Below, in pieces: positions 12,595 to 43,555 of a stretch of DNA of 64,000 bases. Origin of the DNA: an uncultured Gammaproteobacteria bacterium. Its GTDB lineage: Bacteria > Patescibacteriota > Patescibacteriia > PEXW01. A program made the translations under genes and the position numbers. How positions within the stretch are numbered: the stretch's first letter is position 1; every line of letters starts with the position of its first letter. The notes beneath the pieces are model-generated. The model was not told the origin of the DNA. It made no database searches and was given only the letters and a program-made list of their open reading frames with translations. Location of the stretch: contig CAZAMC010000001.1 in NCBI GenBank assembly GCA_964486505.1, forward strand, positions 26,748-90,747, read 5' to 3'.

Positions 12595-14729
12595 CGTGGC
12601 GGACGTGGGTGAGTCTGGTGTGCGCAACGAGTGTGCTTTGGAGCGTTGTACCAGCTCGGGCTTTGGCCGGCGAAGCGCCTTTTTCAGTGGTTGTGGAGTA
12701 TGCTGATGGTCATTTAGAAACAGTTCAGGAGTATGCGGCGAACGCCAGCGCGGCGCTTGAGCAGGCACAGCAACGCACGCAGGGTGTGCATGTGGAGCTT
12801 GACGTTGCCTACCACCTCGCCCTGGTTCCCAACGATCCGCTTTTTGCCGCCCAGGTACAGTTGGAGCAAATAGGTGCGCCTGCTGCGTGGGACACGCGCA
12901 CAGATGCAGGCGAGGTCATTGTGGCCGTCCTTGATTCGGGGGTTGATACCAGTAACCCCGAGTTGGCGAGTAACCTTTGGGTGAATCCCCGGGAGATTGC
13001 AGGCAATGGCGTAGACGATGACAGCAATGGGTATACGGACGACGTGAATGGCTGGAACTTCGTAGAGGATAGTGCTGACCCTCGGCCGCAGATTACCGAA
13101 GGAGCCACCGCCGCCGGCCTTCACCATGGCACTGTGGTTGCGGGTATCATAGGCGCTGAAGGCAACAATGGGGTGGGCGTTGTCGGTGTAACCTGGAATG
13201 TCCAAATTCTCCCCGTACGTGTGCTCGATAGCACTGGCTCGGGTACGACCGTGACGGTAGCGGAAGGTATTCGGTATGCCACCGCCGTGGGCGCTGATGT
13301 TATTAATCTTAGCTTTGTTGGTTCAGGAGTTAGTCCTACGTTGGCAAACGCGATTAGCGCTGCTCAAGCCGCGGGGGTGGTTATTGTGGCTGCTGCCGGG
13401 AATGAAAATTTGGATGTCGATACCACACCACAGTATCCCGTTTGTTACAGCGGCGTCATTGGGGTGGGCTCCGTAAACGCGAGTGACGTAAAGTCGAGTT
13501 TCTCAAATTATGGTTCCTGCGTAGACATCGTTGCACCAGGTGAGAATGTCACCAGTACTCTGCTCTATGCGCCTGCCTCTGGGCACACCAGCCCTACCGG
13601 TGGTGGCTGGTATGGGACATCTGTTGCCTCGCCTTTTGTCAGTGGAGCTGCGGCCCTCATCCGAGCGAGTATGCCAAACGCGTCGGTTGAGAATGTTGAG
13701 CAGATCCTCAAGAGTCATGCGGTATCAATTGCCGGTAGTAATCCTGGATTCGGCGATGACTTAGGGGCAGGCCGGCTGAGCGTGAGCACGCTGGTTGCCG
13801 ATGCAACAGTCGTCGCGGCGAATCGGGTGAGCATTTTGACCATTCCTCGCGCAGGGGATAGCCCTCGCGTCCGTGAGTACAGTGATGCCGGTAAGGTGCT
13901 GCAGCAATTTTACGGTGCACCCCAGAAGTTACAAAACGGGGCAATGGTTCGGAGTGGGGATGTCAATGGTGATGGGAGCGCAGAAGTGGTAACCGCTACG
14001 TTGCAGGGTAGTGATGCGCGCGTCCGTACCTACTCACGCACGGGGCAGCAGTTGAAGTCGTTCCTCGTGTTCCCGTCAACGTATCGCGGGGGCGTCTCAC
14101 TCGCGGTTGGTGACGTGACAGGTGATGGCGCGGCCGAGATTGTTGTGGGTACGCAACTCGGCTCCTCACAGATTCGGGTGTTTTCTGGGGACGGGGCACT
14201 GCTCGGCCAGTTTTTCGCTTTCACGAAGCAGTATCGCGGCGGCGTATCTTTGGCGGTGGGCGATCTCAATGCCGACGGGGTGAATGAAGTACTCGTCGCC
14301 AAGCGCGCTGGAGAAGCACGGATTTCGGCATACACGTTTGCTGGGAAGTTGACCCGTTCTTTCTTGGCGTTTCCCCGCACGTACCGAAGTGGCGTTACGG
14401 TAGCTGTTGGGGATGTAACCGGGGACGGGCAGCCTGACGTGGTAGTTGGAGCAGTCCAGGGTTCACCAACTGTGCGCGTACTCTCCGCTAGCGGAGTGCT
14501 CATTCGGAATTACTCTGCGTACGATCGCGCCCAAACCGGCGGAGTGAGTGTAGCCGTTGGGGATGTTGACGGCGACGGCATTGCTGAAATTCTCACCGGC
14601 ACGGGACCCGGGGCAAAACCCGAAGTGCGCGTGTGGCGTAAGGCTGGGCAGCAACGGTCGCTATTGTTTAACGCGTACACCTCTGTATCTCGAACGGGCA
14701 TTGACGTTAGCGTACTCGCCAGCATATGA
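12591..14729 (+). CDS. Secreted subtilisin-like serine peptidase (S8) with C-terminal FG-GAP/integrin-alpha-like repeat region
   Basis: Signal peptide present. Catalytic motifs: VAVLDSGVD (Asp), HGTVVAGIIGA (His) and GTSVASPFVSGAAALI (Ser). Seven or more repeats of GDV(T/N/D)GDGxxEhVVG with YRGGVS(L/V)AVGD spacing. Confidence 0.85.
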   Translation: MTWRTWVSLVCATSVLWSVVPARALAGEAPFSVVVEYADGHLETVQEYAANASAALEQAQQRTQGVHVELDVAYHLALVPNDPLFAAQVQLEQIGAPAAWDTRTDAGEVIVAVLDSGVDTSNPELASNLWVNPREIAGNGVDDDSNGYTDDVNGWNFVEDSADPRPQITEGATAAGLHHGTVVAGIIGAEGNNGVGVVGVTWNVQILPVRVLDSTGSGTTVTVAEGIRYATAVGADVINLSFVGSGVSPTLANAISAAQAAGVVIVAAAGNENLDVDTTPQYPVCYSGVIGVGSVNASDVKSSFSNYGSCVDIVAPGENVTSTLLYAPASGHTSPTGGGWYGTSVASPFVSGAAALIRASMPNASVENVEQILKSHAVSIAGSNPGFGDDLGAGRLSVSTLVADATVVAANRVSILTIPRAGDSPRVREYSDAGKVLQQFYGAPQKLQNGAMVRSGDVNGDGSAEVVTATLQGSDARVRTYSRTGQQLKSFLVFPSTYRGGVSLAVGDVTGDGAAEIVVGTQLGSSQIRVFSGDGALLGQFFAFTKQYRGGVSLAVGDLNADGVNEVLVAKRAGEARISAYTFAGKLTRSFLAFPRTYRSGVTVAVGDVTGDGQPDVVVGAVQGSPTVRVLSASGVLIRNYSAYDRAQTGGVSVAVGDVDGDGIAEILTGTGPGAKPEVRVWRKAGQQRSLLFNAYTSVSRTGIDVSVLASI

Positions 14730-15136
14730 AGATGCCCTTTGCGCAGAATCCGATGTTCCGTCAGTTCGGCCGCTTCCTGATCATTGGATTCATGAATACC
14801 GGGCTGGACTGGATTGTGTTCTTTGCGCTGACCTCGTGGGTGGGCTGGTTTGGGCAGCATCTGTTGGTAGCGAATGCAATTGCATTTGGCGTTGGTTTTA
14901 CGAATAGCTTTATTTTCAATCGGCGCTGGACGTTCCGGTCAGGCGATCCACGGGTGGCCCGCCAGCTCATTATTTTCCTCCTCATCAATCTTGCCGGTTT
15001 GGGGATAAGCCAGACAATTTTGGCCACAGTGTACGCCTTTACGACGTCACGTCTACTTAGTAAGACCGCCGCAGTTGGACTGACGATGTTCTGGAATTTT
15101 TTTGCCGGCCGCGCCTTTGCTTTTCGGTCGTCGTGA
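14726..15136 (+). CDS. GtrA-family membrane protein (polysaccharide synthesis/translocation accessory)
   Basis: 136 aa with 4 TM segments. FLIIGFMNTGLDWIVFF...FIFNRRWTFRS is the GtrA signature. Confidence 0.7.
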   Translation: MKMPFAQNPMFRQFGRFLIIGFMNTGLDWIVFFALTSWVGWFGQHLLVANAIAFGVGFTNSFIFNRRWTFRSGDPRVARQLIIFLLINLAGLGISQTILATVYAFTTSRLLSKTAAVGLTMFWNFFAGRAFAFRSS

Positions 15137-15172: not shown

Positions 15173-15193
15173 CACCCGTAGTGGGTGTTTTTT
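15173..15193 (+). terminator. Weak intrinsic terminator (caccc-gtagt-gggtg then TTTTTT) after gtrA
   Basis: Direct read. The stem is short. Confidence 0.3.
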
Positions 15194-15202
15194 CGACGAA
15201 CC

Positions 15203-15928
15203 ATGCAACTTTCTATAGTCATTCCGGCATACAACGAGGCCGCGTACATTCGCAAGAAGTTAGACCAGTACCTCGCGGTTTTTGGCGAGGCGGCAGAATT
15301 CATTGTGGTGCCTAATGGCTGCACAGATGAAACCCCGCATATTGCTGCGGCATATGCGAAGCAGTACTCGAATGTTCGGGTTACCGTCATTGCTGAATCA
15401 GTTGGAAAGGCGCGGGCCGTCCGGGAAGGTTGGCGTGTAGCCCAGGGGGAGTGGGTAGCGTTCCTAGACGCTGATGAATCCACAAGCGCCGAAGAATTCC
15501 AGCGCCTCTTCGCCGCCCGTCGCGATGCCGACGGAGTTATCGCTTCTCGGTGGGCACCGGGGGCGCGTGTGGAAAACCGTTCTCCACTTCGCAAGGTTGC
15601 GAGTTACGTGTTTGCCGGCATTGTGAAGCTGCTGTTTTGGATGCCCTACCGCGATACGCAGTGTGGGGCCAAGATATTTCGGCAGAAGCTGGTGCAGCGT
15701 ATCCTCCCGCACACCCGCGTTGATAATATCGCCTTTGATGTTGAACTCCTTCTCCTCTGTCGCCGGGCGGGCGCGCGGATAGTTGAATACCCAACGCACT
15801 GGGTTGATCGTTCCGATTCTGTAATTATTGGTTCTTTTGGCAAGCTCTTGCGTAGCAGTCTCTCTATGCTCTGGACACTCTTCATCCTCCGTCTTCGCTT
15901 TCTCCCTTTCATCGCCCCACGTGTATGA
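15203..15928 (+). CDS. Glycosyltransferase family 2 (polyprenyl-phosphate sugar synthase-like)
   Basis: LSIVIPAYNEAAYI and FLDADES (DxD). The C-terminus is hydrophobic. Confidence 0.8.
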   Translation: MQLSIVIPAYNEAAYIRKKLDQYLAVFGEAAEFIVVPNGCTDETPHIAAAYAKQYSNVRVTVIAESVGKARAVREGWRVAQGEWVAFLDADESTSAEEFQRLFAARRDADGVIASRWAPGARVENRSPLRKVASYVFAGIVKLLFWMPYRDTQCGAKIFRQKLVQRILPHTRVDNIAFDVELLLLCRRAGARIVEYPTHWVDRSDSVIIGSFGKLLRSSLSMLWTLFILRLRFLPFIAPRV

Positions 15929-16944
15929 CTCAACGTCGCCCAATTTTTGATAAGAAAAATGTCATTGTGGCTGGCGGTGCCGGTTTCTTAGGCTCGCACC
16001 TGTGTGATGAGCTCATTAAGAGTGCCAAGGTCATTTGTGTGGACAACTTTAGTACCAGCAGTATCGAAAATATTAACCACCTGCTACAAAATCCGGACTT
16101 TAAATTCATTAAGCACGATCTCACTGAGCCCCTCGACCTCGAAAAGTTTCCCGAACTGCACCCTTTTAAAGTTGCATTTCAAGGCGTGCAAGAAATCTAC
16201 AATTTTGCCTGCCCAACGTCGCCCAAAGAGTATACGCGCGTGCCCATCGAGACCCTCCTGGCCAATGCTTTTGCTTCCCGCCATCTCCTCGATCTTGCGG
16301 TGAAGTACGACGCGAAGTACCTCCTGGCGTCGTCTTCGGCCGTGTACGGCGAGCCTGTTGACTCGCAACCGTTCCGGGAGCAGTACTGGGGCTTTGTTGA
16401 TCCGGTTGGACCGCGGAGCTGCTACAACGAGGGCAAGCGCTTTTCTGAAAGTTTGACGCTCACGTACCGCGAGCAGAGGAAAATTGACGCCAAAGTACTT
16501 CGCATTTTCAATACTTACGGCCCTCGGATGCGGTTGACCGATGGCCGGCTCATCCCGGATCTGGTGAAGAGTGCCTTAGCTGGGGAGCCCTTGCAGATTT
16601 ACGGGCGCCCCGACGCGACCAGTACGTTCTGCTACGTATCCGATCTCGTGGATGGCATTGTGAAGATGATGAAGTCAAGTGACGGCGGGCCAATCAACCT
16701 TGGCAGCGCAGAGCCTGTGCTGCTGGTGACCGTTGCCGAAAAAATACTTTCGCTCACGCAATCAACGAGCCCGATCGAACACCTGGACGCCCATCCATTT
16801 GCGAGTCGCCAAGGGGTGCCCGATATTCGTCAAGCCAAGGACAAGCTAGGTTGGTTTCCCACAATACCCTTGGAGGATGGCCTGTTGGAAACTATAGAGG
16901 CAATGAAAGCGAGCCGAGTGCTAACCTACGAGCAAACGACATGA
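15925..16944 (+). CDS. UDP-glucuronate decarboxylase / UDP-xylose synthase-like SDR (NAD-dependent epimerase/dehydratase family)
   Basis: GGAGFLGSHLCDEL...VICVDNFSTSS...CYNEGKRFSESL resembles the UXS/ArnA-decarboxylase signatures (YDEGKR). Confidence 0.65.
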   Translation: MTQRRPIFDKKNVIVAGGAGFLGSHLCDELIKSAKVICVDNFSTSSIENINHLLQNPDFKFIKHDLTEPLDLEKFPELHPFKVAFQGVQEIYNFACPTSPKEYTRVPIETLLANAFASRHLLDLAVKYDAKYLLASSSAVYGEPVDSQPFREQYWGFVDPVGPRSCYNEGKRFSESLTLTYREQRKIDAKVLRIFNTYGPRMRLTDGRLIPDLVKSALAGEPLQIYGRPDATSTFCYVSDLVDGIVKMMKSSDGGPINLGSAEPVLLVTVAEKILSLTQSTSPIEHLDAHPFASRQGVPDIRQAKDKLGWFPTIPLEDGLLETIEAMKASRVLTYEQTT

Positions 16945-17873
16945 ACCTGCGCATTCTTGTTACTGGTGGGGCGGGATTCATTGGGTCACACCTCGTGGAT
17001 GCGCTTGTGGCACGCGGAGAAAGCGTCCTAGTCTTGGACGATCTTTCGTCCGGCAAACGGGAGTACGTGAACGAACAAGCCCAGTTCGAGCAGGTGGATA
17101 TTCGCACGTCGGCTGCTCAGGACGCGATACGGAATTTTAAACCCGAATTCATTTTCCACCTTGCAGCACAGAAGAGTGTCCCGGACTCGTTGAAGCAACC
17201 TCGGAAGGACGCCGATATAAACCTCGTGGGGTTATGCAATATTTTAGAAGCCCTGCCGGGTTTAGGGCTGAAAAAATTTATTTTTTCTTCAACGGGCGGT
17301 GCCATGTATGGCGATCATGCCCGTCTTCCTGCGACTGAAGAACAGGAAGCACAACCCTCGTCACCGTACGGCTTGGCAAAGTTTGCCTCGGAACGGTACC
17401 TGCAACTCTGGGGCGGTTTGCACAAGTTTCCGGTAACCGTTTTACGACCCGCTAATGTGTACGGGCCGCGTCAGGACCCATACGGTGAGGCGGGGGTCAT
17501 TGCCATTTTTTGCAAACGGGCTGTTGCCGGGCAGCCCATGCGAGTTTTTGGCACCGGTACGCACACGCGTGATTACGTATACGTTTCTGACATTGTGGCC
17601 GCATTCCTTGCCGCTCTGGACCTGGACGCAGCGGGAACGTTCAATCTTGGAACAGGCCAGGAGACTTCGGTGCAGGACATCATTGCAGCCCTTGAGCAGG
17701 AGACGAAGCAGACGTATCCAATCGACCGGCAGCCAGAGGTTGTGGGCGAGATGGAGCGAAGCGCACTCGACGCGAGCGTTGCTCGTCAGGCCCTTCACTG
17801 GCGGCCGAGCGTTGCGCTCGGTGAGGGCATCCGCCAGACGTACTCGTGGTTTTCGTCACATCCTAACGTGTAA
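16941..17873 (+). CDS. NAD-dependent nucleotide-sugar epimerase (GalE/UDP-glucose 4-epimerase family)
   Basis: ILVTGGAGFIGSHLVDAL, then YGLAKFASERY (YxxxK). ATGA overlap with the upstream gene. Confidence 0.75.
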   Translation: MNLRILVTGGAGFIGSHLVDALVARGESVLVLDDLSSGKREYVNEQAQFEQVDIRTSAAQDAIRNFKPEFIFHLAAQKSVPDSLKQPRKDADINLVGLCNILEALPGLGLKKFIFSSTGGAMYGDHARLPATEEQEAQPSSPYGLAKFASERYLQLWGGLHKFPVTVLRPANVYGPRQDPYGEAGVIAIFCKRAVAGQPMRVFGTGTHTRDYVYVSDIVAAFLAALDLDAAGTFNLGTGQETSVQDIIAALEQETKQTYPIDRQPEVVGEMERSALDASVARQALHWRPSVALGEGIRQTYSWFSSHPNV

Positions 17874-19842: not shown

Positions 19843-19843
19843 T

Positions 19844-20170
19844 ATGGTTATTAAGATTCTCATAACCATCTTCGTTGCCTTTGCCGTTTCACGTGTCTAC
19901 CTCCGCTACCGTGATAAAAGTTTTGGCCTCTTCGCTCTAGTCTTTTGGTCACTCATCTGGGGGGTTGTGCTTTTTTTCGCCTGGCTACCCCGGTCAAGCG
20001 ATACAATTGCCCGCATCCTAGGGGTGGGCCGTGGTGTGGAGGCGTTGCTCGCAATTGCGGTGGTAGGGCTTTTCTACGCAGTTTTTCGACTATACGTGAA
20101 GCTTGAGTGGGTTGAGCATGAAATAACTACGTTCGTGCGCAAGATTGCCCTTCAGAAGAAGAACAAGTGA
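19844..20170 (+). CDS. DUF2304-like small membrane protein (commonly paired with ArnC-like GT2)
   Basis: 108 aa with 3 TM segments. Sits directly downstream of a GT2 gene, the arrangement recalled for DUF2304. Confidence 0.45.
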   Translation: MVIKILITIFVAFAVSRVYLRYRDKSFGLFALVFWSLIWGVVLFFAWLPRSSDTIARILGVGRGVEALLAIAVVGLFYAVFRLYVKLEWVEHEITTFVRKIALQKKNK

Positions 20171-38121: not shown

Positions 38122-39135
38122 ATGAAGCTATTTATTACAGGTGGCGCAGGGTTCATTGGTTCTAACTTCATTCACTACATCTTACGGGAACACCCGGAAG
38201 ACACGGTTGTAAATTTTGACAAGCTCACCTATGCCGGGAATTTAGCGAACCTAAAAGATGTAGAAAATGATCCGCGCTATTCTTTTGTACGAGGTGACAT
38301 TGCGGAAGTAGAAGAAGTGCGCAAGGCTCTGCCCGCCGATAGTGATGCCATTATCAACTTTGCCGCTGATTCGCACGTCGACCGCTCGATTCTAGACCCC
38401 GAAGCCTTTTTGCGGACGGACATCTTTGGCACGCGGGTGCTTTTAGAAGTTGCCAAAGAGCGCAAGCTTGAACGCTACGTGCAAATTTCTACCGACGAAG
38501 TGTACGGCGATATCGAACCCGGACAGTTTTCTAAGGAATCCGATCGGCTCCACCCCTCCAGCCCGTACTCGGCGTCGAAAGCCGCTGGAGATCTCATGGT
38601 TCTTGCTTACGTTCGGACCTACGGTGTGCCTGCGCTCATAACGCGATGTACGAATAATTACGGCCCAAATCAGTACCCCGAGAAGTTTATTCCCCTCGCC
38701 GTCACAAATCTCATCGAAGGAAAAGCTGTTCCGGTATACGGCGACGGTCAGCAAGTTCGCGACTGGTTACACGTCGATGACCATTGCCGGGGGATAGACC
38801 TCGCCCTGCGAAAGGGACGGGTAGGTGAGATTTACAACTTCGGCGCCAATCAGAATCCGGAATGGCCCAACCTTACCATCCTGGAAGCAATCTTGAAGCA
38901 GCTGGGCAAGGGCGAGGACCTGAAGACTTTTGTTAAGGATCGGGAGGGCCATGATCGCCGTTACGCTGTTGACACGACCAAAGCAACGCACGAGTTAGGC
39001 TGGAAACCAACCCGGTCATTGGCAGAAGGTCTGCAGCAAACCGTGCAGTGGTATGTTGATCGTCCGGAGTGGTGGCAGCCGTTGAAGAGCGGTGAGTACA
39101 TGGAGTACTACAAGAAGCAGTATAACCACCGCTAG
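38122..39135 (+). CDS. rfbB: dTDP-glucose 4,6-dehydratase
   Basis: MKLFITGGAGFIGSNF, YSASKAAGDLMV (YxxxK) and typical RmlB length of 337 aa. Confidence 0.9.
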   Translation: MKLFITGGAGFIGSNFIHYILREHPEDTVVNFDKLTYAGNLANLKDVENDPRYSFVRGDIAEVEEVRKALPADSDAIINFAADSHVDRSILDPEAFLRTDIFGTRVLLEVAKERKLERYVQISTDEVYGDIEPGQFSKESDRLHPSSPYSASKAAGDLMVLAYVRTYGVPALITRCTNNYGPNQYPEKFIPLAVTNLIEGKAVPVYGDGQQVRDWLHVDDHCRGIDLALRKGRVGEIYNFGANQNPEWPNLTILEAILKQLGKGEDLKTFVKDREGHDRRYAVDTTKATHELGWKPTRSLAEGLQQTVQWYVDRPEWWQPLKSGEYMEYYKKQYNHR

Positions 39136-39136
39136 C

Positions 39137-39985
39137 ATGCAGAAAGTCGTCGTCACCGGCGCACAGGGAATGCTCGGGCAGGAAGTTGTTCGAGTATTTT
39201 CAGCAGACCCACTGTGGCAAGTTGTGGGCTGGGACTTCGAGAACTTGGATATTACCGATGCGAAGAGCGTAGAGGACAAACTGACAGCGGCTGAGGCCCA
39301 ACTGGTCATCAATTGCGCCGCGTACAACAACGTTGATAAAGCTGAAGAGGAGCCCAGCAAGGCACAGCTGCTTAATGCAACGGCGGTGTCGAACCTGGCC
39401 CAGACCTGCACGGCCATTGGCGCCACGCTTGTGCACTTTTCTACGGATTACGTTTTCGACGGTACACGGCGCGAGGGGTACAAGGAAGATGACGTGCCAA
39501 ATCCGCAGAGTGCCTACGCCCGCTCTAAAGCGGCCGGTGAACTCGCGGCCGCACAGACGCCCAAGTACTACGTTATTCGGCTTTCCCGCCTCTTTGGAAA
39601 GCCCGCGGCGTCGGTAAATGCCAAGAAGAGCTTCGTCGACACCATGCTGGCGCTTGCCCAAACTCGACCCAGCCTGGAAGTGGTGGATGCAGAGTATTCC
39701 AGCCCAACCTATGCTCCGGATTTAGCCCAAGCGACGTACGATGTTGTTCGGTTGCAAGCACCGTACGGTATGTACCACCGGACAAATGCTGGTGCTTGCA
39801 CGTGGCACGCCTTTGCCATTGAAGTATTCCGTCTCGCGAAACAGTCCGTAAGCGTTACCCCCGTTGGGCCCGAGCGGTACCCACGGCCGGCGGTACGGCC
39901 CGCGTACTCGCAGCTCATCACCACAAAGCTCCCGGCTTTGCGACCGTGGCAGGAAGCTTTGGCGGAGTACTTGAACGTTCAGTAG
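39137..39985 (+). CDS. rfbD: dTDP-4-dehydrorhamnose reductase
   Basis: MQKVVVTGAQGMLGQEV, YARSKAAGE and about 280 aa, the typical RmlD architecture. Confidence 0.85.
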   Translation: MQKVVVTGAQGMLGQEVVRVFSADPLWQVVGWDFENLDITDAKSVEDKLTAAEAQLVINCAAYNNVDKAEEEPSKAQLLNATAVSNLAQTCTAIGATLVHFSTDYVFDGTRREGYKEDDVPNPQSAYARSKAAGELAAAQTPKYYVIRLSRLFGKPAASVNAKKSFVDTMLALAQTRPSLEVVDAEYSSPTYAPDLAQATYDVVRLQAPYGMYHRTNAGACTWHAFAIEVFRLAKQSVSVTPVGPERYPRPAVRPAYSQLITTKLPALRPWQEALAEYLNVQ

Positions 39986-39993
39986 GCACGTAC

Positions 39994-41985
39994 ATGTTTG
40001 TGGACTGGCATACGAAGCTTACTCCCCGCTGGCAGTGGGCCGTTTTTTGCATCGTTGTCCTGGGGGCACTTTTCTTTCTCCACCATGATGGTTTGCAGGC
40101 AAATTTTTTGGCGGATGACTACGACTGGCTCCGGATTGCTCGGGAAGACAGCACCAACGGTTGGTTGAGCACATTTACCCACTCACACGGGGGGAATTTT
40201 TACCGCCCGGTCGTTGCCCTGGGCTTCCATTTCGACTATGCAATGTGGCAGTACAATCCTTTGGGCTTCCACCTGCACCAGCTGGTTCTTCAGCTGCTGC
40301 TCATCTTCGGGGTAACGCTGCTCGTTCGACGAGTGACACGATCACCGTGGCTCGGCTTTGCTACCGGCGCCCTTTTCGCTGTCCACCCGGCCCAGCACGA
40401 AGTGGTAACGTGGTTAGCTGGCCGGCCCGATCTTTACGCTGCTATGTTCAGTGTCTGGGCACTCGTCGCTTTTTCCACCTGGCTTGAGCAAAAAAAGTGG
40501 CACTGGCTCGTAGTCAGCGCCGTGGCCGGCCTTTTGGGGATGCTGAGTAAGGAAACGGCATTTGTTCTGCCCGCCCTTGCTGGGTTACTCGCTGCGCCTG
40601 GACTTCGGCACCATACGCTAACCTGGAAGCGCGCGAGTGTGGGGGTTGCGCTTTTCGTCGTGCTCTTGAGCAGTGTACTCATTGCCAGGGGCAACGTGCT
40701 CACCAGTGCAATTGGGGGGTACCTGGTCGGGGGTGAACAATCGGGAACAAACTTTACCCTCGAGAACATTAATCGCCCGTTTACCTCACCGTTTAAGTTC
40801 GTGAACTGGGATTACGCATTGGAGCGCTATGGGGACGCCGGCATCGTTGGCTTGCTGGCTCGAGCCTACAATCATTTGGAAAAAGGTTGGGCTCTCTGGG
40901 GCACTCTGTTGCTCGTCGTTTTGGTTGCCTTGTGGTGGCGTCGGCGGAAGACTGCAGCCGCCTCACTACTTATCGGTGGTTTGCTTTGGTCGAGCATTGC
41001 CTTCATTCCGGTATACGGCTTGAGCGGTGATATTCGTTCTTCGCTCATGGGTACGCGGCTACTTTTCTTTGCGTCGATCGGGTACGTGGCTGCGCTGGTT
41101 GGTGCTCTGGGGCTGTTGGATTTTCAGGGACGTTTGTGGCCCACCCTGCGGGTTGTCGCTGTAGGCATTATTTTTGTGTGCGCAGCAGTTCTCTGGCGAA
41201 TAAATGTTGCACCGTGGCGTGTGGCCAGCGATCGTGTGGGCCAGGTGCGGGAGGCATTTGCTCAGCAACTTCCAGACGTACAGTCTGCTCAGGCGCAAGC
41301 CCTATTCTTCCGTCGTCTGCCAGGCTTGTACTTTGGCGCGTACGAGTACTTTGGACCGCGGAGTGTAAGTGAAATGGTGCGGTCTGTCGTTGGCGGAGCA
41401 CAACCCGCCGGGTACCTGGTCGGGAGTCGGGCTTTTGCAGATTCACCCTACTGTGCGTCACCGGTACCGGCCAGCAGCCTGCAGGTACTATCCTGGGACG
41501 CTACGGTAAAACAGTTTGCGCTTGCACCCGTTGCTGCTGTCCAGGAGGGGGTATCAAAAGTGTGGGATTTTCAATTGGGGTCCATGCCAGCGGGTTGGGT
41601 GGCATCAAGCCTTTCCATTGCGAGCACAGAAGGCGGTGTGCAATTTACGCCCGTTGAGCATGGGCAGTACATTGAGTCGCCGTCGCTAGAGGCTTTTACG
41701 GGTTCAGCGTACCGCACGCTCATCGTTCGCTTCCGACTGGTTGGTGAAGGGGACTTTGGCCGCCGCCGCTTCCGTGTAGATTGGCGCCAGAATGGTTCAT
41801 ACAGCCCTGGGCAGTACATCCGGCATGCGTACGACGCGTCTGACGGAAGTTACAGCGTGCGGATTCCGCTCTGCCAGTACTTGCCGTGGGCACTGAGCGA
41901 TGGGGTAGACCAGCTGCGTATACTCCCGGCTACGTCTGGCGCATTTGTTGTGGAGCAGGTTATCCTGTCTCCAGATGCACCCTAA
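39994..41985 (+). CDS. Large polytopic membrane protein, GT-C-like (candidate glycosyltransferase; DD motif in first loop)
   Basis: About 11 N-terminal TM helices, a LADDYDWLR loop motif and a roughly 250-aa C-terminal extracytoplasmic domain. Confidence 0.45.
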   Translation: MFVDWHTKLTPRWQWAVFCIVVLGALFFLHHDGLQANFLADDYDWLRIAREDSTNGWLSTFTHSHGGNFYRPVVALGFHFDYAMWQYNPLGFHLHQLVLQLLLIFGVTLLVRRVTRSPWLGFATGALFAVHPAQHEVVTWLAGRPDLYAAMFSVWALVAFSTWLEQKKWHWLVVSAVAGLLGMLSKETAFVLPALAGLLAAPGLRHHTLTWKRASVGVALFVVLLSSVLIARGNVLTSAIGGYLVGGEQSGTNFTLENINRPFTSPFKFVNWDYALERYGDAGIVGLLARAYNHLEKGWALWGTLLLVVLVALWWRRRKTAAASLLIGGLLWSSIAFIPVYGLSGDIRSSLMGTRLLFFASIGYVAALVGALGLLDFQGRLWPTLRVVAVGIIFVCAAVLWRINVAPWRVASDRVGQVREAFAQQLPDVQSAQAQALFFRRLPGLYFGAYEYFGPRSVSEMVRSVVGGAQPAGYLVGSRAFADSPYCASPVPASSLQVLSWDATVKQFALAPVAAVQEGVSKVWDFQLGSMPAGWVASSLSIASTEGGVQFTPVEHGQYIESPSLEAFTGSAYRTLIVRFRLVGEGDFGRRRFRVDWRQNGSYSPGQYIRHAYDASDGSYSVRIPLCQYLPWALSDGVDQLRILPATSGAFVVEQVILSPDAP

Positions 41986-43555
41986 CCTCCAAAACCTGCA
42001 GAAGTACCGTTGGCCAGCTCTTGCCTGGCTCTTGCTTGTTGCGTTGTACAGCATTATCGCTGTGCATGTGGCCGATTGGCCCGTGTTTAGTTCTCCTGAC
42101 GAAACAGCAAATTTTGCCTTTGCCACGCAGTTTACCGAGGATAGTCAGCTTGGCATTGCCACACCACTTCCATCGGGCGGCCCGCGCAGTGTCGTCAACC
42201 AAGGGCATACGCTCGTTCCCACTAGCTTTGCATTCTTTCCGGCGTTCCTGGGTACGGTAGGCAGCATTGCGGGTAACCTGGGGATGCTCTTGCTCGGGCC
42301 AATCCTTGCCGCGTCCGCGGTGCTGTGTTTGTGGGCGATGGCCAAAATCATCCTGCAGCACCGCATTTCAGCGCTCTGGGTTGGAGTGCTTTTCGCCACC
42401 ACACCAACGTACTGGTTCTACGCGAGTCGGAGTTTTTGGCAGAACGGCATCTTTGTGAGCCTTCTGGTTATTGCGGTGTGGTTGGGCATGCAGGCGGCAA
42501 AGCGACGGTGGTGGCTCGTTGCAGCCCTCAGTGGGCTCGTGGCTGGGGTCGCAGTTGCAATTCGCCCTAGCGAGCTGGTTTGGCTCGTGCCCGCCGTACT
42601 CGCAGGGGTGCTGCTGCTATGGCGAAGCATTTGGTGGCGCTACCTTGTTGTGGGGTGCGTAGCTGCGCTTTTGCCAATCCTCAGTCTTCTGAGCTTGCAA
42701 AAGGTGACGTACGGCGACCCCCTCGCCACCGGCTACCGGCAGGAAAGCATTCTTGAACCTACCCAAGCAAGTCCCGGGCAGTCGCAATTCCGCCAGTGGA
42801 AGAATGTGCTCTTTCCATTTGGAACGTCATTGAGCACAGCTATTGACCGGGTAGCCGCAAACGGGGTACCGCCCCTTTCGTACCTCGTGATTCCCGGGCT
42901 TGTGGGTTTGCTCTACCTCCTTGCTTGGCCGCGGACTCCAAGGGGGATCCGGCGTATGTTCCTGAGCGCTGTTGTCGGCGCCGTTGTCCTGATCGTGCTT
43001 TATGGGAACTACCGCTTTGTCGAATTTCCGGTAAGCCGGGTGCCCACTCTTGGTTCATCGTACTTGCGGTACTGGCTACCGTTCGTGCCGCTCCTGGGGC
43101 TTGGCGTTGGTGCCCTGTTGAATGTTCTTTTCCGACGGGGAGCAATAGCGAAACGTCTGGGCTGGATACTGGGGGCAGGAATTTTTTTGATCAACCTCAC
43201 CCTTATTTGCACGGCGGATATCGGTCTAGCAGACACCCTGCCACGTTTTACCCAATGGCAAGAGCACTCACAATGGGTTGTGCAGCAGACTTCTGCTGAT
43301 GCAGTGGTTGTGGCCGGAAGCAGTGACAAGCTCATTTTCCCTCGACGACAGGTTATTGGGTACGATGGGACCCTCCCCCCAATCACCTTTAGCTTCTCAA
43401 GCTTGGCAAAGGTTGCGCCAACCTACCTCCTGTTGCCAGCAGCAACTGATTTGGAGCAGCTCCAGGGTCGTTACCCCGATGTGCAGATTGGAGAGGCCAA
43501 AACCGGCCCCCAGGGAATTTTCCTCGTTCGGTGGGAAACGGTGCCGGAAATTTAG
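41975..43555 (+). CDS. Polytopic membrane protein, ArnT/PMT-like GT-C glycosyltransferase family (GT39/GT83-like)
   Basis: Many TM helices. The first loop SSPDETANFAF resembles the GT-C DE motif. Start uncertain (41945 or 41975). Confidence 0.45.
   Translation: MHPNLQNLQKYRWPALAWLLLVALYSIIAVHVADWPVFSSPDETANFAFATQFTEDSQLGIATPLPSGGPRSVVNQGHTLVPTSFAFFPAFLGTVGSIAGNLGMLLLGPILAASAVLCLWAMAKIILQHRISALWVGVLFATTPTYWFYASRSFWQNGIFVSLLVIAVWLGMQAAKRRWWLVAALSGLVAGVAVAIRPSELVWLVPAVLAGVLLLWRSIWWRYLVVGCVAALLPILSLLSLQKVTYGDPLATGYRQESILEPTQASPGQSQFRQWKNVLFPFGTSLSTAIDRVAANGVPPLSYLVIPGLVGLLYLLAWPRTPRGIRRMFLSAVVGAVVLIVLYGNYRFVEFPVSRVPTLGSSYLRYWLPFVPLLGLGVGALLNVLFRRGAIAKRLGWILGAGIFLINLTLICTADIGLADTLPRFTQWQEHSQWVVQQTSADAVVVAGSSDKLIFPRRQVIGYDGTLPPITFSFSSLAKVAPTYLLLPAATDLEQLQGRYPDVQIGEAKTGPQGIFLVRWETVPEI

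What the first reader, a model, noticed from the sequence alone, without database searches (positions are those of the whole stretch)
14726..43555. About 29 kb surface-glycan locus combining UDP-GlcA/UDP-Xyl and dTDP-6-deoxyhexose branches, with two FdtA-like ketoisomerases, a methyltransferase, an LhgO-like FAD oxidase and no rmlA or rmlC in the window
- **Encoded enzymes:**
  - GtrA.
  - Four or more GT2 and two or more GT4 transferases.
  - Nucleotide-sugar dehydrogenase plus UXS-like decarboxylase.
  - WecB.
  - rmlB and rmlD.
  - Two FdtA/WxcM-like 3,4-ketoisomerase cupins (28216-28668 and 36664-37092).
  - A WbuC cupin, an RmlD-like reductase and a SAM methyltransferase.
  - A Wzx flippase.
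  - An FAD oxidase closely resembling L-2-hydroxyglutarate oxidase (HNSGVLHAGMHLKPGSLKA).
  - A NUDIX hydrolase.
  - Several large GT-C-like membrane proteins.
- **Inferred sugar:** the reductase - methyltransferase - ketoisomerase - epimerase block on the minus strand (26795-29668) looks like a pathway to a methylated 3-keto-derived 6-deoxyhexose.
- **Missing genes:** glucose-1-phosphate thymidylyltransferase (rmlA) and a canonical RmlC are absent here. The LhgO-like oxidase is unexpected in a glycan cluster.
Basis: partly seen in the sequence, partly recalled or inferred. Interest (0 to 1): 0.5.

Follow-up and report, generated by a model that had tools for sequence, protein, structure and literature searches.

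The report
Glycan locus with 2-hydroxyglutarate recycling oxidase
This is a real surface-sugar gene island of a tiny-genome (Patescibacteria) bacterium. Its "out-of-place" flavin oxidase most likely recycles the L-2-hydroxyglutarate made by a neighbouring Campylobacter-Cj1427-type sugar dehydrogenase, so the two genes would form one small redox cycle.

Summary
**Observation: confirmed.** Window 14726-43555 is a dense glycan-biosynthesis island in a Patescibacteria-type genome. It holds GtrA, five GT2, two GT4, UXS, a GalE-like SDR, an NDP-sugar dehydrogenase, WecB, Wzx, RmlB, RmlD, WbuC, NUDIX, two PMT_2-type GT-C proteins, two cupins, a methyltransferase and a DAO-family flavoenzyme. No nucleotidyltransferase is found anywhere in the 64 kb.

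**Interpretation: partly wrong.**
- **Cupin 36664-37092** is CapF-cupin-like. In a related operon it sits in the RmlC slot (nucleotidyltransferase-cupin-NUDIX-RmlB-reductase).
- **The "epimerase" 28673-29647** lacks the dehydratase Asp-Glu pair. By far its best solved relative is C. jejuni Cj1427 (34% identity, E 2e-41). Cj1427 is a ping-pong C4-dehydrogenase whose bound NADH is re-oxidised by 2-oxoglutarate, giving L-2-hydroxyglutarate.
- **The oxidase** keeps all six L-2-hydroxyglutarate/2-oxoglutarate contact residues of L2HGDH.

**Neighbourhood evidence.** Oxidase relatives sit beside Cj1427-like SDRs in at least nine independent loci, in different gene arrangements and in several oxidase subclades.

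**Best reading** (confidence about 0.55): an oxidise-epimerise-reduce sugar module with its own L-2-hydroxyglutarate-to-2-oxoglutarate recycling enzyme. I class it as a new variant of a known kind. It rests on computation only.

The parts
14726..15136 (+). GtrA-family small membrane protein
   Evidence: PF04138 82.6 bits; about 3 hydrophobic segments.
15185..15928 (+). GT2 glycosyltransferase (a)
   Evidence: PF00535 91 bits.
15925..16944 (+). UDP-glucuronate decarboxylase (UXS)-like SDR
   Evidence: Human UXS1 structures 2b69/4gll, 265 bits, E 6e-78, full length.
16941..17873 (+). GalE-like NDP-sugar 4-epimerase
   Evidence: Thermotoga GalE 4zrm, 283 bits. TIGR01179 scores 187, below its cut-off of 262. 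The ATG at 16941 overlaps the UXS stop.
17879..19171 (+). Nucleotide-sugar 6-dehydrogenase; substrate not resolved
   Evidence: TIGR03026 416 bits. The best equivalog models are UDP-ManNAc dehydrogenase (300/237) and TviB (221), ahead of UDP-Glc dehydrogenase (184/158). All are below their cut-offs.
19168..20170 (+). GT2 (b) plus DUF2304 small membrane protein pair
   Evidence: PF00535 84 bits and PF10066 71 bits.
20167..21339 (+). GT2 (c) with C-terminal membrane segments
   Evidence: PF13641/PF00535; hydrophobic segments.
21348..22940 (+). Polytopic membrane protein, about 11 TM, no family
   Evidence: No Pfam or NCBIfam hit; hydropathy.
22937..24833 (-). Two GT2 glycosyltransferases (d, e), at the end of the minus-strand operon
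   Evidence: PF13641/PF00535.
24830..26065 (-). WecB-type non-hydrolysing UDP-HexNAc 2-epimerase (start uncertain: 26065, 26056 or 26254)
   Evidence: TIGR00236 240 > 210. Start candidates. Homologues are linked to the SDR-cupin-reductase triad in L005, L096, L097 and L124.
26795..27682 (-). RmlD-like SDR, predicted C4-ketoreductase of the module
   Evidence: PF04321 52.7 bits. GxxGxxG and YGLSK motifs present. Exact gene call on record. Homologues follow the cupin in L005, L008, L096 and L124.
27685..28212 (-). Small class-I SAM methyltransferase
   Evidence: PF08241/PF13649; exact gene call.
28216..28668 (-). Cupin 1: RmlC-type NDP-4-keto-sugar epimerase (C3 and/or C5)
28673..29647 (-). Cj1427-like NDP-sugar C4-dehydrogenase (predicted 2-oxoglutarate-dependent, L-2-hydroxyglutarate-forming)
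   Evidence: PDB 6vo6 scores 122 bits, E 2.5e-34, full length; the next hit scores 68 bits. [quoted passage not shown] BLASTP 34% identity, E 2e-41. The motif is STCSVYG, with no Asp-Glu.
29685..32181 (-). Two GT4 glycosyltransferases
   Evidence: PF00534/PF13692. Homologues lie next to the oxidase in L008.
32099..33454 (-). Wzx-type flippase
   Evidence: PF13440/PF01943; 451-aa gene call.
33622..35466 (+). Membrane protein (N-terminal TM segments plus a large domain), no family; conserved position in related genomes
   Evidence: No family. 28-31% identical homologues sit at the same place in L090 and L093.
35468..35495 (.). Hairpin with an 11-bp stem between convergent genes; likely bidirectional terminator
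35500..36582 (-). LhgO/L2HGDH-like FAD enzyme, predicted L-2-hydroxyglutarate to 2-oxoglutarate
   Evidence: PF01266 182 bits. NF008726 scores 208.7, below its cut-off of 299. PDB 3dme and 8w75. S46, H50, Y244, L254, H257 and R317 correspond to dmL2HGDH Ser88, His92, Tyr289, Leu299, His302 and Arg393 (PMC10726252). Neighbourhood evidence.
36664..37092 (+). Cupin 2: CapF-cupin-like epimerase in the RmlC slot of the rml-type operon
37094..37558 (+). WbuC-family cupin
   Evidence: TIGR04366 151 > 42.
37624..38112 (+). NUDIX hydrolase
   Evidence: PF00293 54.8 bits; 162-aa gene call.
38122..39135 (+). RmlB, dTDP-glucose 4,6-dehydratase
   Evidence: TIGR01181 458 > 365. STDEVYG motif. Its 90% cluster is named as Patescibacteria RmlB.
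39137..39985 (+). RmlD, dTDP-4-dehydrorhamnose reductase
   Evidence: TIGR01214 264 > 224; start at 39137.
39946..43555 (+). Two PMT_2-type GT-C membrane glycosyltransferases
   Evidence: PF13231 38 and 27 bits. The second has 44-45% identical homologues at the same place in L090 and L093.

Best explanation
The region is a variable surface-glycan island in a Patescibacteria (CPR) genome. It is built from three nucleotide-sugar modules plus transferases and flippases.

**Module A (14726-22940, plus strand).** It makes UDP-GlcA and UDP-Xyl (dehydrogenase, UXS, GalE-like epimerase). GtrA, GT2 and DUF2304 proteins probably load sugars onto polyprenyl phosphate for the GT-C enzymes.

**Module B (minus-strand operon 33454 to 22937).** Gene order: Wzx, 2 x GT4, Cj1427-like SDR, RmlC-type cupin, methyltransferase, RmlD-like reductase, WecB, 2 x GT2. 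It is an oxidise-epimerise-reduce route that changes the stereochemistry of an NDP-sugar without 6-deoxygenation.
- The sugar is probably a UDP-HexNAc, because WecB travels with the triad.
- As in C. jejuni Cj1427/Cj1430/Cj1428, the SDR would oxidise C4 with a permanently bound NAD. That NAD is re-oxidised by 2-oxoglutarate, releasing L-2-hydroxyglutarate.
- The cupin would then epimerise C3 and/or C5, and the reductase would reduce C4.
- The methyltransferase adds a methyl group at an unknown step.

**The oxidase.** The monocistronic LhgO-like flavoenzyme (35500-36582) would oxidise L-2-hydroxyglutarate back to 2-oxoglutarate. A catalytic amount of 2-oxoglutarate would then sustain the pathway in a cell that probably makes little of it.

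**Module C (36664-43555, plus strand).** Gene order: CapF-type cupin, WbuC, NUDIX, RmlB, RmlD, 2 x GT-C. This is a dTDP-6-deoxy-L-hexose (rhamnose-type) branch in which small cupins replace canonical RmlC. RmlA is encoded elsewhere.

**Shown:** the family assignments, the active-site residues and the recurrent gene neighbourhoods.

**Inferred:** 2-oxoglutarate use by the SDR, the oxidase's substrate, the coupling of the two, and the identity of the sugar.
For: **The SDR resembles Cj1427**
- The SDR at 28673-29647 hits PDB 6vo6 over its full length (122 bits, E 2.5e-34). The next structure scores 68 bits.
- BLASTP gives 34% identity over 319 residues, E 2e-41.
- It shares family-specific motifs with Cj1427 (LAALVGxxxC, FRLxTxFGxS...R.R.DL.VN, D.R.Y). 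It lacks the Asp-Glu pair of 4,6-dehydratases that RmlB has.

**Known chemistry.** Cj1427 holds NADH tightly, and 2-oxoglutarate re-oxidises it to give L-2-hydroxyglutarate. Cj1430 then epimerises C3/C5 and Cj1428 reduces C4 (PMC10680097; PMC7949155).

**The oxidase keeps the L-2-hydroxyglutarate site**
- All six 2-oxoglutarate/L-2-hydroxyglutarate contacts of Drosophila L2HGDH are conserved (PMC10726252). That paper makes the same point for Bp3253 (3dme), the oxidase's best PDB hit.
- The signature S-H-Y-(L/K)-H-R is kept in every SDR-associated relative. It is replaced by S-H-F-K-L-R in the 21 sequences of the large distant lower part of the tree.

**Neighbourhoods starting from the oxidase.** Among 86 loci of oxidase relatives, a Cj1427-like SDR lies within 10 kb in L005, L007, L008, L009, L012, L021 and L022.
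- The named genomes are Saccharibacteria, Uhrbacteria, Liptonbacteria and Nomurabacteria.
- In all but L012 the SDR is adjacent or one gene away.
- The arrangement is divergent in some loci, co-directional in others, and shows a 4-bp overlap in one.
- All seven fall in 26 loci of two upper clades of the tree, and none in the other 60 (Fisher p = 1.2e-4).

**Neighbourhoods starting from the SDR.** In a reciprocal scan, an oxidase lies directly downstream of the SDR in L100 and L119, and 7 kb away in L110. About 0.4 would be expected by chance.

**Independent recruitment**
- The associated oxidases sit in at least four subclades.
- In L008 the sugar genes are 66-81% identical to the window's, but the oxidase is only 39% identical.

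**Cassette-specific.** Close relatives of this genome (RmlB 86-88% identical) keep the backbone but carry other cassettes, with neither the SDR nor the oxidase.

**Precedent.** The D-enantiomer analogue is experimentally established: WbpB makes D-2-hydroxyglutarate and D2HGDH recycles it during P. aeruginosa LPS synthesis (PMC8651671).

**Module C.** The L177 operon runs NTP_transferase-cupin2(78%)-NUDIX-RmlB-reductase. CapF is cupin 2's best fold match, and CapF epimerises C3 of a 4-keto-6-deoxy sugar (PMC3699295).
Against: - There is no biochemistry. 34% identity to Cj1427 does not prove tight NADH binding or 2-oxoglutarate use.
- The association is facultative. 77 of 80 Cj1427-like SDR loci from metagenomes show no oxidase in the sequence held.
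- About half of the CPR-type oxidase loci show no Cj1427-like SDR within 10 kb (L002, L004, L006, L011, L014-L016).
- In the window itself the oxidase is 6 kb from the SDR. It is paired divergently with the rml-type operon instead.
- In Kerfeldbacteria L010 the oxidase sits inside NUDIX-RmlB-OX-RmlD with no Cj1427-like gene. In L025 and L057 it follows an NDP-sugar dehydrogenase. Its link may therefore be to glycan islands, or to NAD-linked sugar oxidation in general.
- The oxidase scores below NCBI's LhgO cut-off (208.7 against 299), and its last 80 residues do not align to that model.
- Its electron acceptor in a Patescibacteria cell is unknown.
- Cupin 1 carries the HxH motif typical of FdtA/QdtA. 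It has Cys where RmlC has its catalytic Tyr, so ketoisomerase activity is not excluded.
- The clade split behind the Fisher test was chosen after seeing the data.
Confidence: 0.55

Rival explanations
1. **First reader's model.** The two cupins are FdtA/WxcM-type 3,4-ketoisomerases. The block 26795-29668 turns RmlB's dTDP-4-keto-6-deoxyglucose into a methylated, 3-keto-derived 6-deoxyhexose. The oxidase is an unexplained passenger.
For: - Both cupins pass Pfam's FdtA threshold (36 and 30 bits against 23).
- Both carry an HxH motif, as FdtA and QdtA do.
- QdtA scores 42.8 bits against the cupin 1 profile, close to RmlC at 47.7.
- RmlB in the same island could supply the 4-keto-6-deoxy substrate.
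Against: - Higher-scoring models exist for both cupins (PF00908 and PF14667).
- No FdtB-type aminotransferase or acyltransferase is in the window.
- The SDR-cupin-reductase triad recurs in loci without any RmlB (L005, L096).
- The model leaves both the Cj1427 similarity and the recurrent oxidase linkage unexplained.
Confidence: 0.1
2. **Housekeeping enzyme.** The flavoenzyme really is an L-2-hydroxyglutarate oxidase/dehydrogenase, but a general one. It would repair L-2-hydroxyglutarate made by lactate or malate dehydrogenases, or serve as a general NADH sink. It would merely tend to lie in variable glycan islands and have no specific tie to the Cj1427-like SDR.
For: - About half of the CPR-type oxidase loci have no Cj1427-like SDR nearby.
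- 77 of 80 SDR loci have no oxidase.
- In L010, L025 and L057 the oxidase lies next to RmlB/RmlD or an NDP-sugar dehydrogenase instead.
- In the window it is a separate transcription unit with its own terminator hairpin.
Against: - Direct adjacency recurs in at least eight loci, in different orientations, including 4-bp overlaps or gaps (L022, L119). It is seen in several oxidase subclades and with two SDR subfamilies.
- The oxidase was swapped while the sugar genes were kept (L008 against the window).
- Close relatives of this genome that lack the SDR cassette also lack the oxidase at this place.
Confidence: 0.2
3. **Different substrate.** The flavoenzyme acts on something else connected with the glycan. 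It could act on glycerol-3-phosphate (GlpO-like, for a glycerol-phosphate or serinol-type decoration). Or it could act directly on a sugar hydroxyl, as the FAD-dependent 4'-oxidase SepI does in septacidin synthesis.
For: - The NCBIfam type-2 glycerol-3-phosphate oxidase model aligns over the full length (114 bits), whereas the LhgO model covers only residues 2-281.
- The M. pneumoniae GlpO structure is a hit.
- FAD-dependent sugar 4-oxidation has a precedent (PMC9978623).
Against: - The GlpO score is far below its cut-off (114 against 460) and below the LhgO score (208.7).
- The His302 equivalent (H257) is conserved. The L2HGDH paper's list of contact residues shared with GlpO does not include His302 (PMC10726252).
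- SepI belongs to the GMC family, not the DAO family.
- With a Cj1427-like dehydrogenase present, a second C4 oxidase would be redundant.
Confidence: 0.08
4. **Ordinary epimerase.** The SDR 28673-29647 is a GalE-type 4-epimerase, or a reductase. The cupin and RmlD-like reductase work on RmlB's product, so module B is a second 6-deoxy-L-hexose branch (for example 6-deoxytalose or a methyl-rhamnose).
For: - NCBIfam's best hit for the SDR is GalE (85 bits), then RmlD (60 bits).
- RmlB is present in the island.
- The reductase is RmlD-like.
Against: - GalE-type structures score 45-68 bits, against 122 for Cj1427.
- The family motifs are shared with Cj1427 and not with the window's own GalE-like protein.
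- The triad plus WecB recurs without RmlB (L005, L096, L097).
Confidence: 0.07

Closest known systems
C. jejuni heptose modification pathway Cj1427 (MlghA) / Cj1430 (MlghB) / Cj1428 (MlghC)
   Same: - The enzyme logic and gene order are the same: an SDR C4-dehydrogenase without a dehydratase pair, then an RmlC-fold epimerase, then an SDR C4-reductase, with a methyltransferase in the cluster.
- The window SDR is 34% identical to Cj1427.
   Different: - The host is a Patescibacteria genome, not Campylobacter.
- The module is linked to WecB rather than to GDP-heptose synthesis genes, so the substrate is probably a UDP-HexNAc.
- The reductase is RmlD-like. Whether it resembles Cj1428 was not tested.
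- The epimerase has Cys in place of the catalytic Tyr, and an HxH motif.
- An L-2-hydroxyglutarate oxidase gene accompanies the module. The C. jejuni papers I could read do not mention one.
WbpB-D2HGDH coupling in Pseudomonas aeruginosa LPS synthesis (PMC8651671)
   Same: A sugar-nucleotide dehydrogenase with tightly bound NADH is re-oxidised by 2-oxoglutarate. A flavoprotein 2-hydroxyglutarate dehydrogenase returns the product to 2-oxoglutarate, which sustains glycan synthesis.
   Different: - It involves the opposite enantiomer (D-2-hydroxyglutarate).
- WbpB is a GFO/IDH/MocA enzyme acting at C3, not an SDR acting at C4.
- D2HGDH has a VAO/FAD_binding_4 fold (my own knowledge), not the DAO fold.
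- In P. aeruginosa D2HGDH also serves SerA. In the window and its relatives the two genes are clustered.
LhgO / L2HGDH and Bordetella Bp3253 (PDB 3dme)
   Same: - DAO-fold FAD enzyme.
- All six substrate-contact residues are conserved (PMC10726252).
- Best PDB hits are 3dme (118 bits, full length) and Drosophila L2HGDH (115 bits).
   Different: - It is about 60 residues shorter than LhgO or L2HGDH (360 aa).
- It is below the NCBIfam LhgO cut-off (208.7 against 299).
- The context is a glycan island rather than glutarate/lysine catabolism (csiD-lhgO; my own knowledge) or mitochondria.
dTDP-L-rhamnose pathway RmlABCD
   Same: RmlB and RmlD pass their equivalog cut-offs. A cupin lies immediately upstream in the same operon.
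   Different: - There is no RmlA in 64 kb.
- There is no canonical RmlC. The slot holds a CapF-type cupin plus WbuC and a NUDIX hydrolase.
CapF/FnlB C-terminal cupin domain (UDP-L-FucNAc pathway)
   Different: It is a stand-alone 142-aa protein, not fused to an SDR reductase. It is paired with RmlB/RmlD (dTDP chemistry) rather than with CapE/CapG.
FdtA/QdtA 3,4-ketoisomerases
   Same: Small cupins with an HxH motif. The Pfam FdtA model is passed by both cupins.
   Different: - They are outscored by RmlC or CapF models.
- Fold comparison prefers RmlC-type for cupin 1 and CapF for cupin 2.
- No partner aminotransferase is present.

Membership tests
Cj1427-type ping-pong NDP-sugar C4-dehydrogenase | Extended SDR with a GxxGxxG NAD site and a Ser/Thr-Tyr-Lys triad | tested here: met
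   GGAGYIG, STCSVYG and YAKTK motifs; PF01370 109 bits.
Cj1427-type ping-pong NDP-sugar C4-dehydrogenase | Closest characterised relative is Cj1427; family-specific motifs are shared | tested here: met
   6vo6 122 bits against 68 for the next structure. 6vo6 is the C. jejuni GDP-heptose dehydrogenase. 34% identity, E 2e-41. Motif alignment.
Cj1427-type ping-pong NDP-sugar C4-dehydrogenase | No 4,6-dehydratase acid/base pair, so the product keeps its C6 hydroxyl | tested here: met
   STCSVYG, against STDEVYG in the window's RmlB.
Cj1427-type ping-pong NDP-sugar C4-dehydrogenase | Tightly bound NADH re-oxidised by 2-oxoglutarate, yielding L-2-hydroxyglutarate | not testable with these tools
   This is a biochemical property (PMC10680097). 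I could not read the papers that would name diagnostic residues.
Cj1427-type ping-pong NDP-sugar C4-dehydrogenase | Followed by an RmlC-fold epimerase and a C4 reductase | tested here: met
   Genes at 28216-28668 and 26795-27682 on the same strand with 2-4 bp spacers.
L-2-hydroxyglutarate oxidase/dehydrogenase (LhgO/L2HGDH) | DAO-fold FAD-binding domain | tested here: met
   PF01266 181.7 bits, residues 3-356.
L-2-hydroxyglutarate oxidase/dehydrogenase (LhgO/L2HGDH) | Substrate contacts Ser88, His92, Tyr289, Leu299, His302, Arg393 (dmL2HGDH numbering) | tested here: met
   S46, H50, Y244, L254, H257 and R317 by alignment to 8w75. Five of these (all but L254) are invariant in the 12-sequence alignment A1. 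Signature survey.
L-2-hydroxyglutarate oxidase/dehydrogenase (LhgO/L2HGDH) | Score at or above NCBIfam NF008726 equivalog cut-off | tested here: not met
   208.7 bits against 299. Only residues 2-281 align. I therefore file it as LhgO-like (Bp3253-type short form), not as an LhgO equivalog.
L-2-hydroxyglutarate oxidase/dehydrogenase (LhgO/L2HGDH) | Specific oxidation of L-2-hydroxyglutarate | not testable with these tools
   Needs an enzyme assay.
FdtA/QdtA 3,4-ketoisomerase | Pfam PF05523 above its gathering score | tested here: met
   Cupin 1 scores 36.0 and cupin 2 scores 30.2, against 23. Both are outscored, by PF00908 (44.2) and PF14667 (38.6) respectively.
FdtA/QdtA 3,4-ketoisomerase | Fold closest to FdtA-type enzymes | tested here: not met
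FdtA/QdtA 3,4-ketoisomerase | Partner 3-aminotransferase (FdtB/QdtB) or 3-ketoreductase context | tested here: not met
   No DegT or aminotransferase domain in any ORF of the window.
RmlC (dTDP-4-dehydrorhamnose 3,5-epimerase) | TIGR01221 equivalog cut-off | tested here: not met
   Cupin 1 scores 27.2 against 155.75. Cupin 2 has no hit.
RmlC (dTDP-4-dehydrorhamnose 3,5-epimerase) | Catalytic His, Lys and Tyr, plus the C-terminal R-x-D-P segment | tested here: inconclusive
   In cupin 1 the His (H57), a Lys (K64) and the C-terminal D/R/D-P segment are present, but Cys stands at the Tyr position, as in WbcA.
RmlC (dTDP-4-dehydrorhamnose 3,5-epimerase) | Occupies the epimerase slot of an rmlA/B/D operon | tested here: met
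   For cupin 2: window order cupin2-WbuC-NUDIX-RmlB-RmlD. L177 order NTP_transferase-cupin2-NUDIX-RmlB-reductase.
Complete dTDP-L-rhamnose pathway (RmlABCD) | Glucose-1-phosphate thymidylyltransferase (RmlA) present | tested here: not met
   No NTP_transferase domain in 64 kb, and tblastn finds nothing. The rest of the genome is not available.
UDP-GlcA / UDP-Xyl branch | UDP-glucuronate decarboxylase | tested here: met
   265 bits, E 6e-78 to human UXS1, full length.
UDP-GlcA / UDP-Xyl branch | UDP-glucose 6-dehydrogenase | tested here: inconclusive
   The protein is a generic NDP-sugar dehydrogenase. UDP-ManNAc and UDP-GlcNAc dehydrogenase models score higher than UDP-Glc dehydrogenase models, and all are below their cut-offs.

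The most novel reading that the evidence does not exclude
Patescibacteria, and some other bacteria, carry a portable two-enzyme redox cycle. A Cj1427-type SDR oxidises C4 of a nucleotide sugar using 2-oxoglutarate as the hydride sink. A dedicated short LhgO-type flavoenzyme regenerates the 2-oxoglutarate. Together they act as a nucleotide-sugar 4-oxidase that needs only catalytic 2-oxoglutarate. In this locus the cycle would feed an RmlC-type epimerase, a methyltransferase, a reductase and WecB, making a methylated, non-deoxy N-acetyl-L-hexosamine. No biosynthetic route to a sugar of that class is known to me (my own knowledge).
Probability: 0.35. Interest if true: 0.7.

Novelty: new variant of a known kind. 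Interest (0 to 1): 0.55.

Why it matters
- **Reach of the Cj1427 mechanism.** If true, the unusual ping-pong mechanism of Cj1427 extends well beyond the Campylobacter heptoses in which the papers I read describe it. It would cover a broad family of SDRs in candidate-phyla-radiation bacteria and in environmental metagenomes.
- **A role for an orphan gene.** It would give a concrete function to the LhgO-like genes that appear in genomes with almost no central metabolism.
- **A gene-clustered L-enantiomer counterpart.** The WbpB-D2HGDH coupling shown experimentally in Pseudomonas would gain a clustered L-enantiomer equivalent.
- **An annotation rule.** An LhgO-like gene next to a GalE-like SDR with no Asp-Glu pair, a small cupin and an RmlD-like reductase would mark an oxidise-epimerise-reduce sugar pathway, not a 6-deoxyhexose pathway.
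- **Correcting a likely mis-annotation.** Small HxH cupins labelled "WxcM/FdtA-like" may in fact occupy the RmlC slot of rml operons.
- **Testability.** All of this can be tested with four recombinant proteins.

Tried and rejected
- **Primary Cj1427 papers.** I tried to read the structural and functional papers (PMC7509852, PMC7500870, PMC8240034) to get residues diagnostic of tight NADH or 2-oxoglutarate binding. They are not held, so no residue-level test of the ping-pong property was possible.
- **Literature searches for PDB codes 6VO6 and 6VO8.** They returned only noise. I settled the identity of 6vo6 by an exact-sequence look-up instead.
- **Metagenome scan with the SDR alignment.** The 80 loci are therefore an arbitrary sample and many are short contigs. 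I use them as a reciprocal check, not as a frequency estimate.
- **NUDIX-remnant idea.** I considered whether the plus-strand ORF 26143-26736, in the gap between the reductase and WecB, is a degraded NUDIX gene. BLASTP gave E = 1.0 and Pfam gave no hit at E ≤ 1, so I rejected it.
- **WbpB-type pathway.** I considered a ManNAc(3NAc)A route as the source of 2-hydroxyglutarate. No GFO/IDH/MocA protein, aminotransferase or acetyltransferase is in the window, so I rejected it.
- **CapE/CapF/CapG-type route for module B.** The first SDR scores only 19.9 bits on Polysacc_synt_2, below its cut-off of 20.2, and it lacks dehydratase residues. I rejected this route.
- **RmlA search.** This counts only as support for the Pfam result.
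- **Promoter scan around the oxidase.** No sigma-70-like sites were found. This is uninformative for this phylum.

Full report
**1. What is in the sequence**

Plus strand, 14726-22940:
- GtrA
- GT2
- an SDR that is a clear UDP-glucuronate decarboxylase relative (265 bits, E 6e-78 to human UXS1)
- a GalE-like SDR (283 bits to Thermotoga GalE)
- a nucleotide-sugar dehydrogenase
- GT2 plus DUF2304
- GT2
- an 11-TM protein with no family

Minus strand, 33454 down to 22937:
- Wzx
- two GT4
- an SDR (28673-29647)
- a 150-aa cupin (28216-28668)
- a 175-aa SAM methyltransferase
- an RmlD-like SDR
- a gap of 0.5-0.7 kb
- WecB (240 bits against a cut-off of 210)
- two GT2

After these:
- a plus-strand membrane protein (33622-35466)
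- the minus-strand DAO-family flavoprotein (35500-36582)
- a plus-strand operon from 36664: a 142-aa cupin, WbuC (151 against 42), NUDIX, RmlB (458 against 365), RmlD (264 against 224) and two PMT_2-type GT-C proteins

Gene boundaries for four of the minus-strand genes coincide with deposited gene calls.

The flanks carry these genes:
- MurJ, LepA and a subtilase
- MurA, CtpA, ribosomal protein L9 and PyrG
- type IV pilus genes
- MraY, FtsW, MurG and MurC

None of the ORFs scanned across the 64 kb (all those of 90 aa or more in the non-overlapping set) carries an NTP_transferase domain. The RmlB falls in a 90%-identity cluster whose named members are "Patescibacteria group bacterium". The window lies on a 263-kb NCBI contig.

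**2. The two cupins are not best described as FdtA ketoisomerases**

Cupin 1:
- It passes Pfam's FdtA model (36 bits) but scores higher on the RmlC model (44 bits).
- A 30-sequence family profile hits RmlC (47.7 bits), the GDP-sugar epimerase WbcA (46.3) and QdtA (42.8).
- It carries the C-terminal R-x-D-P segment typical of RmlC.
- It does have an HxH motif, and Cys where RmlC has its Tyr. Its exact reaction (C3, C5 or both; isomerisation not fully excluded) stays open.

Cupin 2:
- It matches Pfam's CapF-C-terminal model better than FdtA (38.6 against 30.2).
- The family is remarkably conserved, at 75-94% identity in Dehalococcoidia, Gemmatimonadaceae and others.
- In locus L177 it sits in a tightly packed operon: NTP_transferase-cupin2-NUDIX-RmlB-reductase. 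That is the place of RmlC.
- Close relatives of the window genome (RmlB 86-88% identical) also keep a small cupin just upstream of RmlB.

So "no canonical RmlC" is true, but the rml-type operon does have a candidate epimerase.

**3. The key reassignment**

That is 6vo6 (122 bits, E 2.5e-34, end to end). The next structure scores 68 bits.

An exact-sequence look-up shows what 6vo6 is. [quoted passage not shown] BLASTP gives 34% identity and E 2e-41.

The window protein and its homologues share family-specific motifs with Cj1427. They have STCSVYG where the window's RmlB has the dehydratase motif STDEVYG.

The published chemistry is as follows. Cj1427 holds NADH so tightly that it is inactive until 2-oxoglutarate re-oxidises it, and 2-oxoglutarate is reduced to L-2-hydroxyglutarate in the process. 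The enzyme then oxidises C4 of the GDP-heptose. Cj1430, an RmlC-fold enzyme, epimerises C3/C5, and Cj1428 reduces C4 (PMC10680097; PMC7949155).

The window's order of SDR, RmlC-type cupin, methyltransferase and RmlD-like reductase is the same logic. It predicts a sugar that keeps its C6 hydroxyl, not a 6-deoxyhexose.

**4. The oxidase then makes sense**

Family placement:
- The flavoprotein is DAO-fold (182 bits).
- It is closest to NCBI's LhgO model, though below its cut-off (208.7 against 299, residues 2-281 only).
- Its best PDB hits are Bordetella Bp3253 (3dme) and Drosophila L2HGDH.

Active site:
- The L2HGDH structure paper lists the 2-oxoglutarate contacts as Ser88, His92, Tyr289, Leu299, His302 and Arg393. 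It notes that all are conserved in Bp3253 (PMC10726252).
- Mapping through the 8w75 alignment (chain index plus 40) gives S46, H50, Y244, L254, H257 and R317 in the window protein. All six are conserved.
- Among 91 relatives, the signature S-H-Y-(L/K)-H-R is kept in all members found next to Cj1427-like SDRs. It is replaced by S-H-F-K-L-R in the 21 sequences that make up much of the distant lower part of the tree.

**5. Comparative evidence for coupling**

Starting from the oxidase:
- Contexts of close homologues and 80 genome loci were screened by BLASTP against the window's proteins and Cj1427.
- A Cj1427-like SDR lies within 10 kb in seven of 86 loci: L005, L007, L008, L009 (Saccharibacteria), L012 (Uhrbacteria), L021 (Liptonbacteria) and L022 (Nomurabacteria).
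- In all but L012 it is adjacent or one gene away.
- The arrangement is divergent in L005 and L008, and in L007 with a nucleotidyltransferase between. It is co-directional in L009 and L021, and shows a 4-bp overlap in L022.
- All seven fall among 26 loci of two upper clades of a neighbour-joining tree, and none among the other 60 (Fisher p = 1.2e-4). The split was chosen after seeing the tree.

Starting from the SDR:
- A reciprocal scan of metagenome contigs gave 80 loci.
- Two have an oxidase directly downstream (L100, L119) and one has it 7 kb away (L110). About 0.4 would be expected by chance.

Independence of the pairings:
- The SDR partners belong to two subfamilies. One is 46-78% identical to the window's SDR. 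The other is closer to Cj1427 itself (28-43% identical in the alignment).
- In L008 the sugar genes are 66-81% identical to the window's, while the oxidase is only 39% identical and sits in another subclade.
- Repeated, independent pairing is what functional coupling predicts.
- Close relatives of this genome share the backbone (membrane protein, cupin, RmlB, RmlD, GT-C, MurA, CtpA, L9, PyrG). They carry other cassettes, and neither the SDR nor the oxidase.

**6. Limits**

- The link is facultative. Most Cj1427-like SDR loci have no oxidase in the sequence held. Several CPR oxidase loci have no such SDR nearby.
- In the window the oxidase is a monocistronic unit. It is divergent from the rml-type operon across an 81-bp spacer, has a strong hairpin after its stop, and lies 6 kb from the SDR.
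- In Kerfeldbacteria L010 the oxidase sits inside NUDIX-RmlB-OX-RmlD-cupin. In L025 and L057 it follows an NDP-sugar dehydrogenase.
- A looser role therefore cannot be excluded. That could be general L-2-hydroxyglutarate repair, or an NADH sink for glycan islands.
- The electron acceptor in a Patescibacteria cell is unknown.

**7. Which sugar?**

This cannot be read from the sequence.
- The window-type SDR subfamily travels with cupin 1, the RmlD-like reductase and WecB in the window, L005, L096, L097 and L124.
- That points to a UDP-HexNAc substrate. UDP-ManNAc is manno-configured, like Cj1427's substrate.
- The product would be an N-acetyl-L-hexosamine-type sugar, here methylated. This is inference only.

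**8. Comparison with what is known, and novelty**

- The closest system is the C. jejuni Cj1427/Cj1430/Cj1428 pathway.
- The closest precedent for the recycling idea is the WbpB-D2HGDH coupling shown experimentally in P. aeruginosa LPS synthesis. It involves the D-enantiomer and different protein folds (PMC8651671).
- My full-text searches for Cj1427 with 2-hydroxyglutarate, for L-2-hydroxyglutarate with ping-pong, nucleotide sugar and dehydrogenase and for L-2-hydroxyglutarate oxidase with nucleotide-sugar gene clusters found no description of an L-2-hydroxyglutarate oxidase clustered with a Cj1427-type enzyme.
- The library is incomplete, and the primary Cj1427 papers could not be read.
- I therefore rate the locus as a whole an ordinary, if rich, Patescibacteria glycan island. 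I rate the oxidase-dehydrogenase pairing a new variant of a known kind.

**9. Verdict**

- Observation: confirmed.
- Interpretation: partly supported.
- Best explanation: confidence about 0.55.
- Interest: 0.55.

Noticed in passing
window 35468-35495: A perfect hairpin with an 11-bp stem and a T-rich tail lies exactly between the convergent stops of the oxidase (35500) and the membrane-protein gene (35466). It is probably a bidirectional terminator, and it makes the oxidase a single-gene unit.
   Followed up: partly
window 26066-26794: A gap of 0.5-0.7 kb interrupts the otherwise tightly packed minus-strand operon, between the RmlD-like reductase and WecB. It holds only a plus-strand ORF (26143-26736, 197 aa) with no family hit and no similarity to the window's NUDIX protein.
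   Followed up: yes
window 36664-37092; L176 8001-8426; L177 8001-8429: The cupin 2 family is unusually conserved. It is 75-94% identical in proteins named as Dehalococcoidia and Gemmatimonadaceae. It is 77-78% identical in L176 (GC 70%) and L177 (GC 41%), while the adjacent RmlB in L177 is only 54% identical.
   Followed up: partly
L010 8208-12522; L025 8676-11074; L057 8591-11065: Oxidase relatives also occur inside a NUDIX-RmlB-OX-RmlD-cupin operon (Kerfeldbacteria chromosome). In two loci they lie directly downstream of an NDP-sugar dehydrogenase that is 39-40% identical to the window's. No Cj1427-like SDR is nearby in any of these.
   Followed up: partly
window 37624-38112; L009 1950-2429 and 8838-9383; L010 8208-8783; L167 6969-7700; L177 8432-8968: A NUDIX hydrolase recurs next to these sugar-nucleotide modules, including directly after a Cj1427-like SDR in L167. 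Its role is unknown; editing or regulation of nucleotide-sugar pools is one possibility.
   Followed up: no
L008 18-3685 compared with window 26795-29647 and 35500-36582: In L008 the SDR, cupin and reductase are 78%, 81% and 66% identical to the window's. The adjacent oxidase is only 39% identical and belongs to another subclade. The oxidase has therefore been exchanged or recruited independently.
   Followed up: yes
L090 and L093 compared with window 33622-49176: Related Patescibacteria genomes share the backbone membrane protein-cupin-RmlB-RmlD-GT-C-MurA-CtpA-L9-PyrG. Upstream they carry entirely different sugar cassettes: ABC-transporter type with DegT in one, PseB/DegT/acetyltransferase type in the other. 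L090 and L091 also have an AbiEii/DUF6922 pair inserted between rmlB and rmlD.
   Followed up: partly
window 58194-60281: A 695-aa ORF fuses a Cu-oxidase_4 (YfiH/PgeF-like) domain to a Mur-ligase middle and C-terminal domain, within the MraY-FtsW-MurG-MurC cluster.
   Followed up: no
window 19168-20170: A GT2 gene is followed immediately by a DUF2304 small membrane protein. From memory, this resembles the mycobacterial polyprenyl-phosphate-sugar synthase pair PpgS/Rv3632. It would fit the several GT-C enzymes in the window, which need lipid-linked donors.
   Followed up: no
window 12591-14729: A subtilase with FG-GAP repeats overlaps the GtrA start codon by 4 bp, so it may be co-transcribed with the glycan island. 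A third PMT_2-type GT-C lies outside the region at 54978-56834(-). A GT4 fragment and a DUF4012 protein lie at 13-2574.
   Followed up: no
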